Source: Stegostoma tigrinum (Eukaryota). Taken from it: a stretch of 64,000 bases of DNA. A model generated the notes under the pieces. It ran no database searches. It was not told where the DNA came from and was given only the letters and a program-made list of their open reading frames with translations. Location: contig NC_081367.1 in NCBI RefSeq assembly GCF_030684315.1, forward strand, positions 11,886,792 to 11,950,791, read 5' to 3'. The position numbers were made by a program, and so were the translations under genes. Below are positions 416 through 55,980 of the stretch, in pieces (position 1 is the first letter of the stretch; the number at the start of each line of letters is the position of its first letter).

Positions 416-490
416 AAATGTGGATATATTTTACTCAGATTGTTTTGTGAACCAGATGCCCTGGAGTTTGAAAAAAACCCCTGTGACATT
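416..490 (+). CDS. SP100/SP110/SP140-like nuclear body protein, bromodomain exon (third from last; gene extends upstream of the window)
   Basis: ttacag|AAATGT...GACATT|gtaagt; 75 nt, phase 0/0; KCGYILLRLFCEPDALEFEKNPCDI resembles the bromodomain helix Z of SP140 (KCEFLLLKVYC) and TRIM24 (KCERLLLFLYC). Confidence 0.85.
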
Positions 491-54200: not shown

Positions 54201-55980
54201 GGGTTATTGGGATAGTGTAGGGGAGTGGATGTGGTTGGGCTGCTTTTTGGATGGGTGGTGTGGATTCAGTGGGCCAAATGGCCTGCTTCCTCATTGTAGG
54301 AATTCTATGATTTTCAATCTGTGTCTGTTTATAAGTGCACAAATGAATTCCTAATAATTGTCCATCACCAGTGTGCAATTAAGCACAAGTAATAAACAAG
54401 TAATAGTACTGTCGGAATCACTGGACTTAAAAGTTATTTGTCATTGCTCAACAGTACATCCATGTGCTTTTGTGCAGCTTCTTGAATTTCATCACCGAAA
54501 TAGAACAGTTGAGGATGCACCTCTCCAGTCTCCCTTACGCAGTTGATGTATTTCCTGCATGGCTGCACCCCCCCCCCCCCCCCCCAATCATTATGGCTGA
54601 TCTTATTGAGATTCAGCTCCACTTACCCACCCACTGACCATAACCCTTAATTCCTTCACTGTACAGGCCAGATAAGAATTCATTTCCTAATCTCCATACT
54701 AGTACCTAGCTAGCACCATTTAATAGCAATCTGATTGTTACAGTCTCTTTGCATGGCCCAATACTTTTGTCCATGTCAATATCTTGAGCTTTGACAGGAT
54801 TTCTCTTGATGTTCTGCCATTGACTTGCTATTCGCCACAGCAATGGACACAGTCTAAGATAATCTTCAGGCTTCTGGAAATGCTTCCCTACTTTCCCCTT
54901 AAAAGTTCCAATAGTCTCTGGCAAATAATTCCATGCCTCAGATACTATCCGAGTAAAGAAAGATTTTCTAACCTGTATCTCCAAAGCAGGTAATCTTCCC
55001 TGTTCACCCAATCAAAACATTTTCTTGTTCAAATGGATAACCCCCTACCAATATCAAATGACTCTTCTCATAACTGGAAATTCCCAACTGATTTCATCCA
55101 GGTGAGTTATAACGTGAATGTTCTTTACAAAATACCCATGCTTTAAAAAAGTTACTACAGCCATCCTCAGCAGTCAATGTACTGCCTAGTAGTGTTGCAC
55201 ATATATGTTTTTATTTGCACCTTCATGCTTTGTTCCTAATTGTCAATGCTTTTGACTTTATTTATAGATCTAACTATTTTTGGGGGAATGCATTTTAAAT
55301 CCCTCCTCATGCTCACCAGCACCTTTCCATCGAGTGTACAATCCAATGCTTTGTTTTTCATCCCTCTAATTGTGTCTGCACGTTAGATTTCATCTGTCCC
55401 TTATCTGTCCAATCCATTAATCTGTGTTTTCTTGAAATATTACATTTCTGCTTGCTGTTTGTTAATTCCCTGAACCAGCTCCAGCATTCCCCATCATTGC
55501 CACGCCAATTCCAAATACAACAGCAATTCGCAACATCATCTGTTCCTTGTTGTTGTTTGCAAGCTGTTCCGTTAGTCCCAAATTTGTCTTTCTGTTCCAT
55601 GCCAACCATTGCAACTTTGTTGTTCAAATGTTTGTTCCTCATTCCCATGACTGTGAGCCTTTTCTATTGCATTCATACCAATTCATATCAACTATAATCT
55701 AGGTTAGATAGCTGTTTCCATCTACAGTGTAAATGCCTAATAGTTTAAAGATCAACATCATGCCCCCTTTCCACTGTCTTTCTTCGACCAGCTCAGTTCC
55801 TGACTTTTTCCTCAATGCAGGCCCGGCAATGATCATGTAATCAGGAATACCAAAAGCATAAATCAATACTTTTAACTTTATTCTTTGATTTTGTCATAGA
55901 GCTCGATCGATGGCATCTTGCAGTGGGCTTTGCAAAACATTCCCAGGCCCGTGTCTGAGAGCCCTGGCCTTAATCATTAA
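16061..55980 (+). CDS. AIRE: Autoimmune regulator AIRE, spliced CDS of 13 exons (1605 nt, 534 aa)
   Basis: join(16061-16207,18656-18830,23738-23896,26553-26624,30014-30115,35337-35467,36146-36261,41556-41664,43893-44081,44904-45046,45205-45301,50384-50467,55900-55980). Phases chain without frameshift; domain order CARD-NLS-SAND-PHD1-linker-PHD2-CTD; no bromodomain. Confidence 0.95.
16890..18610. mobile_element. Penelope-like element with inverted duplication (minus copy about 16890-18005, plus copy about 18010-18610)
   Basis: RT motif [12 protein letters not shown] on the minus strand; GIY-YIG motif [17 protein letters not shown] on the plus strand; 16941-17534 is the diverged reverse complement of 18010-18609. 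Confidence 0.88.
18656..18830 (+). CDS. AIRE: AIRE exon 2 (CARD/HSR C-half), GC donor
   Basis: ttttcaacag|GAA...AAAG|gcaagt; 175 nt; [10 protein letters not shown]...[26 protein letters not shown] matches human [26 protein letters not shown]. Confidence 0.93.
20335..21130 (+). mobile_element. tRNA SINE (20335-20570) joined to a CR1 3' end (20570-21130)
   Basis: tRNA-like head (tggcctagtgg...ggttcaaatccc); CR1 tail ending (ctctatga)n. Confidence 0.8.
21730..23070 (+). mobile_element. Penelope-like retroelement (RT + GIY-YIG), decayed
   Basis: [47 protein letters not shown]; degenerate hammerhead-like ctgatga at about 22989. Confidence 0.88.
23738..23896 (+). CDS. AIRE: AIRE exon 3 (NLS region)
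   Basis: tttacag|AC...CCAG|gtaaga; [14 protein letters not shown]...PLKRKSPEE vs human DVDLSQPRKGRKPP...PTKRKASEE; phase 1/1. Confidence 0.92.
24156..24214. repeat. (CA)n microsatellite
   Basis: About 29 perfect AC units in AIRE intron 3. Confidence 0.97.
25052..25513 (-). mobile_element. solo LTR, 462 bp
   Basis: TG...CA ends; perfect 5-bp TSD GGTTC (25047-25051, 25514-25518); minus-strand TATAAA (25191-25196) then AATAAA (25110-25115); splits a SINE at about 24770-25560. Confidence 0.8.
26553..26624 (+). CDS. AIRE: AIRE exon 4
   Basis: gcttttcag|GA...AGTG|gtaagt; 72 nt, phase 1/1; [24 protein letters not shown] vs human GSQLKAKPPKKPES...RLPLGN. Confidence 0.82.
26975..27450. repeat. degenerate ~23-bp minisatellite interrupted by a SINE tail (about 27260-27385)
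   Basis: Repeated tcagtgagat(a/g)ttactctgtgtg-like units. Confidence 0.75.
28105..28428 (-). mobile_element. HE1-type tRNA SINE, full length
   Basis: Minus strand ggcagcatggtggctcagtggttagcactgcagcctcacag..., internal gtgtggagtttgcacattctccc, (aatct)n tail. Confidence 0.88.
28900..29880 (-). mobile_element. decayed CR1 ORF2 fragment
   Basis: Minus-strand remnants such as [15 protein letters not shown] and YLNKKK, typical of CR1 ORF2. Confidence 0.55.
30014..30115 (+). CDS. AIRE: AIRE exon 5 (SAND N-part)
   Basis: ttttaataag|GA...TCAG|gtatta; [34 protein letters not shown] vs human SVQRAV...AVEGILIQQVFES. Confidence 0.9.
32170..32530 (+). mobile_element. tRNA SINE, full length
   Basis: ggaggagatggcctagcgg head; 3' tail agggcagctagggacaggcaataaattctggccag...gaataaaaaa shared with the LINE at 4430-5660. 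Confidence 0.82.
33960..35290 (+). mobile_element. two CR1 3' fragments (33960-34480 and older 34600-35290)
   Basis: [18 protein letters not shown] motif and CR1 3' UTR ends; the last ends about 50 nt before AIRE exon 6. Confidence 0.75.
35337..35467 (+). CDS. AIRE: AIRE exon 6 (SAND C-part)
   Basis: ccattcag|GA...GCGCAG|gtattg; 131 nt, phase 1/0; [44 protein letters not shown] vs human [23 protein letters not shown]. Confidence 0.85.
36146..36261 (+). CDS. AIRE: AIRE PHD1 exon (human exon 8 equivalent)
   Basis: tgtctgaacag|AAA...CCCAT|gtaagt; 116 nt; [38 protein letters not shown], nearly identical to human PHD1. Confidence 0.96.
37020..37170. mobile_element. palindromic mini-element from inverted Penelope terminal repeats (second family)
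   Basis: aggtgtagagctgaatgaacacagcag...aggagcaggaaag / ctttcctgctcct...ctgtgtttgtccagctccacacct. Confidence 0.72.
37676..39180 (-). mobile_element. Penelope-like element with ~260-bp inverted terminal repeats
   Basis: 37721-37979 is inverted relative to 38917-39172; GIY-YIG-related remnants ([17 protein letters not shown]); imperfect 14-bp duplication acc(g/t)taaacc(t/a)atg at 37661 and 39181. Confidence 0.8.
39439..39860 (+). mobile_element. young Penelope terminal-repeat fragment
   Basis: Homologous to the reverse complement of 46110-46520; flanked by agaccag duplication; CpGs intact. Confidence 0.85.
39767..39796 (+). ncRNA. minimal hammerhead ribozyme motif (Penelope type)
   Basis: CTGATGA-A-GGGT(CTAG)GCCC-GAAAC-GTC: conserved core, stem II, palindromic ACGT stem III, GUC triplet; stem I only about 2 bp. 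Confidence 0.7.
41556..41664 (+). CDS. AIRE: AIRE exon (human exon 9 equivalent; end of PHD1)
   Basis: tctgctcag|TGGT...CAA|gtaagt; GTWRCLSC supplies the last Cys pair of PHD1; phase 2/0. Confidence 0.92.
42170..43340 (+). mobile_element. old CR1 RT fragment with HE1 SINE 3' part inserted (about 42536-42727)
   Basis: KFAEDTK motif (aaatttgcagaggacaccaaa); HE1 internal cctccgggtgctctggtttcctc. Confidence 0.65.
43893..44081 (+). CDS. AIRE: AIRE exon (human exon 10 equivalent; Ser/Pro-rich linker)
   Basis: tgtgcactag|GTG...CGG|gtaaca; 189 nt, phase 0/0, open, contains LEQLL. Little sequence similarity to human, so it is assigned by position, size and phase. Confidence 0.7.
44904..45046 (+). 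CDS. AIRE: AIRE PHD2 exon (human exon 11 equivalent)
   Basis: tattttcag|ATC...ATGAG|gtatgt; [26 protein letters not shown] vs human [26 protein letters not shown]. The start could alternatively be 44916. Confidence 0.9.
45205..45301 (+). CDS. AIRE: AIRE exon (human exon 12 equivalent; end of PHD2)
   Basis: cattacag|GACG...ATG|gtaagt; TGRCISC completes PHD2; phase 2/0. Confidence 0.88.
45545..45574 (+). ncRNA. minimal hammerhead ribozyme motif, identical to 39767-39796
   Basis: Within an ~88-nt Penelope tail (45542-45629) identical to 39764-39851. Confidence 0.7.
46099..47975 (-). mobile_element. Penelope-like retroelement, 5'-truncated (RT + GIY-YIG + terminal repeat)
   Basis: [52 protein letters not shown] in frameshifted ORFs; 12-bp TSD agttttatactt at 46087-46098 and 47976-47987. 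Confidence 0.92.
49670..50145 (-). mobile_element. CR1 LINE 3' fragment
   Basis: [30 protein letters not shown]. Confidence 0.85.
50384..50467 (+). CDS. AIRE: AIRE exon (human exon 13 equivalent)
   Basis: ctttctctttag|GCT...GAG|gtgagt; [16 protein letters not shown] vs human HEPALHRDDLESLLSE. Confidence 0.88.
50900..52030 (+). mobile_element. Penelope-like element (GIY-YIG fragment) with inverted 5' copy of its terminal repeat
   Basis: [21 protein letters not shown]; 50922-51062 is inverted relative to 51885-52027. Confidence 0.85.
51930..51967 (+). ncRNA. minimal hammerhead ribozyme motif (second Penelope family)
   Basis: AGTT-CTGATGA-A-GGGTC(ACTG)GACCT-GAAAC-GTT-AACT: 4-bp stem I (AGTT/AACT), 5-bp stem II, GUU triplet. 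Confidence 0.65.
52080..53900 (-). mobile_element. decayed LTR-retrotransposon gag(-pol) remnant
   Basis: Minus-strand [18 protein letters not shown] and [32 protein letters not shown] resemble retrotransposon gag; many stops. Confidence 0.55.
53957..54312 (+). mobile_element. HE1-type tRNA SINE, full length
   Basis: ggtggcacggtggctcagtggttagc A box, gggttcacttcc B box, tail attctatgatt. Confidence 0.88.
55900..55980 (+). CDS. AIRE: AIRE terminal exon (C-terminal activation tail)
   Basis: ttttgtcatag|AGC...[29 protein letters not shown] vs human HTFDGILQWAIQSMARP. Confidence 0.95.
   Translation, partial: SSIDGILQWALQNIPRPVSESPGLNH

What the first reader, a model, noticed from the sequence alone, without database searches (positions are those of the whole stretch)
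416..55980. AIRE lies in direct tandem with an SP100/SP110/SP140-family gene: candidate ancestral SP-AIRE cluster
Seen: the SP-like gene ends at 3588 and AIRE starts at 16061 on the same strand, with no intact gene between them. Established: AIRE and the SP proteins are the paralogues that share the CARD/HSR-SAND-PHD architecture; in human they are unlinked (AIRE 21q22.3 between DNMT3L and PFKL, SP cluster 2q37). Inference: this lineage preserves the tandem duplication from which AIRE, the thymic tolerance regulator, arose from a speckled-protein ancestor at the origin of jawed-vertebrate adaptive immunity. I cannot tell from here whether this linkage has been published.
Basis: partly seen in the sequence, partly recalled or inferred. 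Interest (0 to 1): 0.85.

Follow-up and report, generated by a model that had tools for sequence, protein, structure and literature searches.

The report
AIRE still beside its parent gene
In this shark the thymus self-tolerance gene AIRE sits directly behind the genome's only detected speckled-protein (SP140-like) gene, an arrangement also reported in a frog, and shared exon boundaries suggest AIRE likely arose as a side-by-side copy of that gene that then lost its bromodomain.

Summary
Observation confirmed. The upstream gene is a 16-exon CARD-SAND-SAND-PHD-bromodomain SP140-like gene, not a TRIM. AIRE (13 coding exons, 534 aa) follows on the same strand. These are the only two CARD/HSR genes found in the genome.

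The adjacency is not species-specific. Bamboo shark has consecutive locus tags, and 6 of 6 other sharks carry both genes on same-length contigs. A 2026 preprint notes in passing that sp110 is immediately upstream of aire in Xenopus.

SP and AIRE share CARD, SAND and PHD intron positions. SP's SAND exons match DEAF1 and its PHD-bromodomain exons match TIF1, so AIRE most likely lost the bromodomain and duplicated the PHD module.

Corrections: AIRE probably has an upstream exon at about 11093-11225, so the gap is about 7.5 kb or less. The PHD tree does not resolve direction. Timing relative to lampreys is untested.

Both genes and their paralogy are known. My 10 literature searches found no tandem-origin proposal, but key subscription papers were unavailable.

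The parts
416..490 (+). SP140-like gene, coding exon 14 of 16 (bromodomain, 75 nt, phase 0-0). Exons 1-13 (CARD, SAND1, SAND2, PHD) lie upstream of the window; ATG at G000:C17:11858914
1840..1983 (+). SP140-like exon 15 (bromodomain, 144 nt, phase 0-0)
3469..3588 (+). SP140-like last coding exon with stop TAA
3687..3692 (+). AATAAA, candidate polyadenylation signal of the SP gene
   Evidence: sequence; function inferred
3589..16060 (.). Interval between SP stop and AIRE ATG: repeats and unique blocks, no intact protein gene or Rfam RNA detected
4244..4813 (+). Degenerate LINE reverse-transcriptase fragment
   Evidence: Pfam RVT_1 E 7.8e-07
11093..11225 (+). Candidate upstream (probably 5' UTR) exon of AIRE: acceptor at 11091-92, donor AG|GTAACA, in-frame ATG at 11161; predicted, not RNA-confirmed
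16061..16207 (+). AIRE coding exon 1 (CARD first half, 147 nt like SP exon 1; AG one base before ATG as in SP)
18656..18830 (+). AIRE exon 2 (CARD second half; GC donor)
23738..23896 (+). AIRE exon 3 (basic, NLS-like region)
26553..26624 (+). AIRE exon 4
30014..30115 (+). AIRE exon 5 (SAND first half, phase 1-1)
35337..35467 (+). AIRE exon 6 (SAND second half, phase 1-0; degenerate in elasmobranchs)
36146..36261 (+). AIRE exon 7 (PHD1, 116 nt, phase 0-2; same length and phases as the SP PHD exon)
41556..41664 (+). AIRE exon 8 (end of PHD1, phase 2-0)
43893..44081 (+). AIRE exon 9 (Ser/Pro-rich linker)
44904..45046 (+). AIRE exon 10 (PHD2, phase 0-2)
45205..45301 (+). AIRE exon 11 (end of PHD2, phase 2-0)
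50384..50467 (+). AIRE exon 12 (acidic C-terminal tail)
55900..55980 (+). AIRE exon 13 (C-terminal tail, stop)

Best explanation
An SP140-like gene and AIRE lie head-to-tail here, and the pair is likely the surviving product of a tandem duplication older than the shark/bony-fish split, from which AIRE probably arose by losing the bromodomain. Shown: both gene structures, the adjacency, the shared intron positions, and an AIRE clade that includes chimaera and bony vertebrates. Inferred steps: (1) a proto-SP gene was assembled by exon shuffling from a CARD, a DEAF1-type two-exon SAND module and a TIF1-type PHD-bromodomain cassette; (2) it duplicated in tandem; (3) the downstream copy lost the three phase-0 bromodomain exons, duplicated the symmetric (0-2-0) two-exon PHD module to give PHD1 and PHD2, and gained the acidic tail, becoming AIRE; (4) the order was kept passively in sharks and frog, and broken in placental mammals and at least one ray-finned fish.
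For: Adjacency: only 2 HSR genes found in the genome. C. punctatum chiPu_0002000 (SP) and chiPu_0002001 (AIRE) share one 7.27-Mb scaffold. Same-length contig for both genes in 6 of 6 other sharks, including Heterodontus and Heptranchias. X. tropicalis sp110 is 'immediate upstream neighbor' of aire, and newt has both on chr 11 (preprint 10.64898/2026.03.27.714371). Same-length contig in echidna, opossum and bilby. Gene structure: both have a 147-nt first coding exon, an AG one base before the ATG, a phase-1 intron after the CARD, mid-SAND phase 1, and a 116-nt 0-2 PHD exon. CARD region 54 of 125 columns identical, PHD 24 of 38. Polarity: two TIF1-type genes share four introns with the SP PHD-bromodomain cassette. 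The mid-PHD phase-2 intron is in AIRE, SP and 3 TIF1-like loci and in 0 of the other 13 PHD loci read. A SAND+MYND (DEAF1-type) gene has the same 140-nt 1-0 SAND exon as SP. Chimaera AIRE keeps an SP-like KNWK SAND, 26 of 50 identical to SP SAND1. Age: AIRE CARD clade 100/99.
Against: The free PHD tree puts AIRE PHD1 outside a 95/92 group of SP, TIF1 and AIRE PHD2. An SP+AIRE clade is not rejected (AU p 0.31) but is not recovered, so direction rests on parsimony. The CARD tree has no outgroup and does not show SP as one clade. The phase-0 intron before the PHD also occurs at the same place in 3 KDM5-like loci, so it is not unique to SP and AIRE. Same-length contig shows the same chromosome, not adjacency. 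Reedfish has the two on different contigs. Direct adjacency outside this genome rests on one pair of locus tags and one sentence of a preprint. No cyclostome data were examined.
Confidence: 0.75

Rival explanations
1. Ancestral tandem pair, but the direction is reversed or undefined: the pre-duplication gene had no bromodomain, and SP captured the TIF1 PHD-bromodomain cassette after the split.
For: The free PHD tree groups SP PHD with TIF1 and leaves AIRE PHD1 outside. AIRE PHD1 has a CHD-like second half.
Against: AIRE PHD1 carries the TIF1-type phase-2 intron absent from CHD, PHF21, BPTF-like and KDM5-like loci, and has the same 116-nt exon as SP. This needs two captures from TIF1 instead of one capture and one loss. 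The AU test does not reject SP+AIRE.
Confidence: 0.15
2. The pair is kept together by shared regulation (common NF-kB or interferon enhancers, or read-through), not just passively.
For: The adjacency persists in lineages separated by the deepest gnathostome split. AIRE's candidate 5' exon has its own acceptor, so its promoter lies still closer to SP.
Against: The linkage is broken in human (established knowledge) and reedfish. There are 0 kB-consensus sites in 3589-16060 and 7 in the window against 6.75 expected. The candidate exon holds in-frame stops if joined to the last internal SP exon (read), so no fusion protein is expected.
Confidence: 0.12
3. SP and AIRE are dispersed or whole-genome-duplication paralogues brought together secondarily, or the junction is an assembly artefact.
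For: They are unlinked in human (established knowledge). No single contig or read spans the gap.
Against: It would need independent juxtaposition in sharks and frog. An independent assembly gives consecutive locus tags. The unique gap blocks are at single-copy depth in two species.
Confidence: 0.04

Closest known systems
Mammalian SP100/SP110/SP140/SP140L cluster (human 2q37.1)
   Same: CARD/HSR-SAND-PHD-bromodomain order (PMC4548144 passages); bromodomain in the same clade; growth by tandem unequal crossover is documented for SP140L.
   Different: One gene found here, not four; two SAND domains; the bromodomain keeps the FN of the acetyl-lysine pocket like TIF1 (role recalled); its neighbour is AIRE, while a CAB39-type gene lies 7.7 Mb away.
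AIRE (human 21q22.3)
   Same: CARD-SAND-PHD1-PHD2-acidic tail, no bromodomain; falls in the AIRE clade. The review PMC12748037 states that SP proteins have a bromodomain instead of the second PHD (passage).
   Different: Flanked by SP and IWS1; no PFK-family match on this chromosome (a lower bound); probable extra 5' exon; SAND degenerate in elasmobranchs.
Xenopus tropicalis sp110-aire adjacency (bioRxiv 10.64898/2026.03.27.714371)
   Same: An SP gene is the immediate upstream neighbour of aire (sections 15, 18, 19 read).
   Different: Mentioned only to exclude a false orthologue; the sections read give no evolutionary interpretation and no strand or distance, and the text holds no mention of sharks.
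TIF1 family (TRIM24/33/66) and DEAF1
   Same: Likely donors of modules: four introns shared with SP's PHD-bromodomain cassette; DEAF1-type SAND exons share phases and the 140-nt length.
   Different: TIF1 has RING-B-box-coiled coil and DEAF1 has MYND; neither has a CARD.

Membership tests
SP100/SP110/SP140 (speckled protein) family - upstream gene | N-terminal HSR/CARD | tested here: met
   Pfam HSR E 7.6e-22, residues 9-100
SP100/SP110/SP140 (speckled protein) family - upstream gene | SAND domain | tested here: met
   Two SAND stretches, E 3.6e-54
SP100/SP110/SP140 (speckled protein) family - upstream gene | C-terminal PHD-bromodomain grouping with SP proteins | tested here: met
   Pfam; SP clade 99/97 with TIF1 outside, 21 rows chosen by me; best PDB hit Sp100, with TRIM33 almost equal
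SP100/SP110/SP140 (speckled protein) family - upstream gene | Nuclear-body localisation, interferon inducibility, repression | not testable with these tools
   Needs cells and expression data
TIF1 (TRIM24/28/33/66) - upstream gene | RING-B-box-coiled-coil N-terminus | tested here: not met
   The full 624-aa model matches only HSR, SAND, PHD and Bromodomain
AIRE - downstream gene | CARD-SAND-PHD1-PHD2-C-terminal tail, no bromodomain | tested here: met
   PHD2 by local alignment, not by Pfam at E 0.01
AIRE - downstream gene | Orthology to named AIRE proteins | tested here: met
   512 residues identical to whale-shark AIRE, which lies in the AIRE clade 100/99
AIRE - downstream gene | Expression in medullary thymic epithelium and induction of tissue antigens | not testable with these tools
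   No run on record as thymus RNA was available
Ancestral tandem-duplicate pair | Adjacent, same strand, nothing intact between | tested here: met
Ancestral tandem-duplicate pair | Shared exon-intron structure | tested here: met
Ancestral tandem-duplicate pair | Adjacency on both sides of the gnathostome root | tested here: met
   Shark locus tags and the frog statement in a preprint; frog DNA not inspected by me
Ancestral tandem-duplicate pair | Rooted phylogeny giving the direction SP-like to AIRE | tested here: inconclusive
Ancestral tandem-duplicate pair | Duplication after the cyclostome split | not tested
   No lamprey or hagfish sequence was identified or searched

The most novel reading that the evidence does not exclude
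The shark locus records the whole birth of AIRE: a CARD, a DEAF1 SAND module and a TIF1 PHD-bromodomain cassette were shuffled into a proto-SP antiviral chromatin reader, which duplicated in tandem in the gnathostome stem; the downstream copy swapped its bromodomain exons for a second PHD module and an activation tail, turning a repressor into the thymic tolerance activator. This has not been described.
Probability: 0.4. Interest if true: 0.8.

Novelty: new variant of a known kind. Interest (0 to 1): 0.62.

Why it matters
Where AIRE came from is a gap in the account of how jawed vertebrates gained central tolerance, and a 2025 review calls the functional difference between SP proteins and AIRE an open question (PMC12748037). 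A conserved tandem pair with matching exons names the parent gene and the exon-level changes (bromodomain loss, PHD duplication, new tail). That makes the repressor-to-activator switch testable by domain swaps between shark SP and AIRE, whose CARDs are unusually close. It also tells people where to look for a proto-AIRE in lamprey and hagfish, and explains annotation mix-ups such as the chimaera SP protein named 'autoimmune regulator'.

Tried and rejected
TRIM identity was rejected.

RNA support: no RNA holder was listed on record. Contigs of four runs, three guessed to be RNA, were laid on 301-19000. Repeats dominated the output, and neither an AIRE splice nor a read-through joint appeared among the rows shown. 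This is uninformative, not evidence.

DNA contigs of four runs covered unique blocks of the gap but none spanned it.

NF-kB consensus sites were at chance level.

A RAB6-like neighbour suggested by a fused carp AIRE model has no match in the 414 kb fetched around the locus, and its best matches are on other contigs.

PFK and TRPM-type families gave no match on this chromosome (lower bounds).

Two Atlas searches on flanking exons gave no usable hit.

Other SAND loci in the genome are two GMEB-like, one DEAF1-type and one unassigned single-exon SAND on C36; none carries an HSR match.

Chimaera adjacency is only hinted at: UniRef ids A0A4W3IT29, IT39 and IT43 are close, and NCBI names the SP protein 'autoimmune regulator'. 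I did not count it as evidence. The sturgeon SP lies on a 102-kb scaffold and is uninformative.

The PHD tree did not give the direction. Earlier scan findings: none returned.
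Full report
Setting. The window is G000:C17:11886792-11950791. C17 has the same length (79,021,053) as the contig recorded for Stegostoma tigrinum protein P0020, and my SP gene model equals that protein, so the genome is most likely zebra shark.

The upstream gene. One bromodomain exon retrieved five shark proteins named SP140-like (5 of 7 candidates). Mapping them on 150 kb of upstream DNA gave 16 coding exons from 27.9 kb before the window to 3588, all GT-AG. 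Pfam finds HSR, two SANDs, PHD and bromodomain and nothing else. A bromodomain tree of 21 rows chosen by me (16 SP rows, four of them with guessed taxon labels) groups it with vertebrate SPs at 99/97, with the two TIF1-type genes outside.

The downstream gene. AIRE has 13 coding exons, 16061-55980, 534 aa, 512 residues identical to whale-shark AIRE. In a CARD tree of 55 rows picked from 229 hits, AIREs of chimaera, sharks, skate, ray-finned fish and tetrapods form one clade (100/99). The tree has no outgroup and SP is not recovered as one clade.

The gap. Stop to ATG is 12,472 bp. Fourteen open frames gave one LINE fragment and three sub-threshold hits; Rfam gave none. Contigs of two same-species runs (possibly the assembly's own source) match eight unique blocks each almost without differences at even depth. 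Two runs of a related species hold orthologous blocks at about 90-96% identity. None spans the gap. The ATG is preceded by a pyrimidine tract and AG at -1. The 22-residue extension of a bamboo-shark AIRE model matches 11182-11226 (E 5e-05), which ends in AG|GTAACA in the right phase and is single-copy. So AIRE probably begins at or before 11093, about 7.5 kb from the SP stop. This exon is predicted from another species' model, not seen in RNA here.

More than chance, and not local. The HSR profile matches four exons in the genome, two per gene. In C. punctatum the genes are chiPu_0002000 and chiPu_0002001 on one scaffold. For all 6 other sharks with both contig lengths on record (Rhincodon, Heterodontus, Heptranchias, Hemiscyllium, two Chiloscyllium) the lengths are equal. 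Among 5 bony vertebrates where I could compare, 3 are equal (echidna, opossum, bilby), reedfish differs, and sturgeon is uninformative. Equal length means the same chromosome only. The Novabrowse preprint (abstract, passages and sections 15, 18, 19 read; figures and supplements not seen, and they may hold the frog gene order) calls sp110 the immediate upstream neighbour of X. tropicalis aire and places newt SP140-like and Aire on chromosome 11. Shark plus frog brackets the gnathostome root.

Neighbourhood. Upstream on the minus strand lie a Mab-21-domain gene and an espin-like ankyrin gene. Downstream lie IWS1, two coagulation-protease genes (protein C top hit for the one tested, factor X nearly equal) and a DGK delta/eta-type gene. 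A CAB39-type gene is 7.7 Mb away on the same contig. From recall, the likely human counterparts lie on 2q14 and 2q37, not 21q22. No PFK or TRPM-type match was found on C17 (lower bounds). This suggests that the human position of AIRE is the derived one (inference).

Gene structure. SP and AIRE share an acceptor one base before the ATG, a 147-nt first exon, a phase-1 intron after the CARD, the mid-SAND phase-1 intron, and a 116-nt phase 0-2 PHD exon followed by a 2-0 exon. AIRE PHD2 repeats the 0-2-0 pattern. Of 21 PHD loci returned, 18 were readable by my motif. The mid-PHD intron is in AIRE, SP and three TIF1-like loci and in none of the other 13 (family labels recalled from motifs). Against uniqueness, the intron just before the PHD is also present in three KDM5-like loci. 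Two TIF1-type genes share four introns with SP's PHD-bromodomain cassette. A SAND+MYND gene (DEAF1 type) has the same 1-1 and 1-0 SAND exons, the second 140 nt as in SP, whereas two GMEB-like genes do not. AIRE SANDs are closer to SP SAND1 than SAND2 in 4 of 4 AIREs compared, and chimaera AIRE keeps the KNWK motif.

Mechanism. TIF1 and DEAF1 genes predate vertebrates (established knowledge). So PHD plus bromodomain is the older state, and its absence in AIRE is most simply a loss of three symmetric phase-0 exons, with duplication of the symmetric PHD module. This step is inferred. The PHD tree (32 rows, 53 columns) unites AIRE, SP and TIF1 at 99/98 but puts AIRE PHD1 outside SP+TIF1. The AU test neither rejects nor shows an SP+AIRE clade (p 0.31). 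I put the ancestral tandem pair at about 0.9 and the SP-like-to-AIRE direction at about 0.8, together about 0.75. Passive retention is more likely than shared control, as the linkage has been broken and kB sites are at chance level.

Literature. Ten searches were run combining AIRE with SP100/110/140, synteny, shark, tandem duplication, paralog, lamprey, Xenopus, intron and gnathostome. Only the preprint states the adjacency, and none of the passages read proposes a tandem origin. Seen as passages only: PMC8773594, PMC4548144, PMC12748037, PMC13649554, PMC3964593, PMC9292287, PMC7695478, 10.1101/2022.02.01.478624, 10.1101/693333. No matching passage was found in PMC12043008 or PMC6135963. The 2020 SP-family review was not held, and most subscription journals are not searched, so absence from print is not shown.

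Verdict. A real, conserved feature. The genes and their paralogy are known and the frog adjacency is noted in passing. The reading as AIRE's birthplace, with exon-level support, appears to be new within what I could search. Interest 0.62.

Noticed in passing
Protein P0300/P0041 (Callorhinchus milii XP_007904586.1): NCBI names this protein 'autoimmune regulator', but it has the SP architecture HSR-SAND-SAND-PHD-bromodomain; the true chimaera AIRE appears as UniRef entries P0014/P0015. Likely a misannotation.
   Followed up: yes
window 35337-35467: The AIRE SAND second half is degenerate in sharks and skate (lost CI..G..FY.P..FE pattern) but SP-like and intact in chimaera.
   Followed up: partly
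window 18831-18832: AIRE intron 2 begins with GC (AAG|GCAAGT), a GC-AG intron.
   Followed up: no
G000:C20:35.09 Mb (L068, L069, L075) and C20:28.9 Mb (L042): The DEAF1-type gene and a TIF1-type gene, the two likely module donors of SP, lie 6.2 Mb apart on one chromosome.
   Followed up: partly
window 1960-1983 (end of SP exon 15): Shark and other non-placental SP bromodomains keep the FN at the end of helix B as TIF1 does, while three probably mammalian SP rows lack it; they may still bind acetyl-lysine (role recalled).
   Followed up: no
L030-L034 (about 60-110 kb past the window end, minus strand): Two tandem coagulation-type serine protease genes (EGF, trypsin) next to IWS1; protein C is the top hit for one, factor X nearly equal.
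   Followed up: partly
L006-L008 (58-76 kb before the window start, minus strand): A Mab-21-domain gene is the nearest identified gene upstream of SP, divergently oriented.
   Followed up: partly
L002/L001, SP exons 4-5 and 9-10: The SP gene has two SAND domains; many fish and amphibian SP proteins also have two or more, while probably mammalian ones have one that resembles shark SAND1.
   Followed up: partly
L062:523-711 (G000:C36): An unassigned SAND domain encoded in one uninterrupted reading frame.
   Followed up: no
L001, about 2.2-1.9 kb before the window start: A database isoform (P0018) uses an alternative last exon before the PHD, giving a CARD-SAND-SAND protein without PHD or bromodomain.
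   Followed up: no
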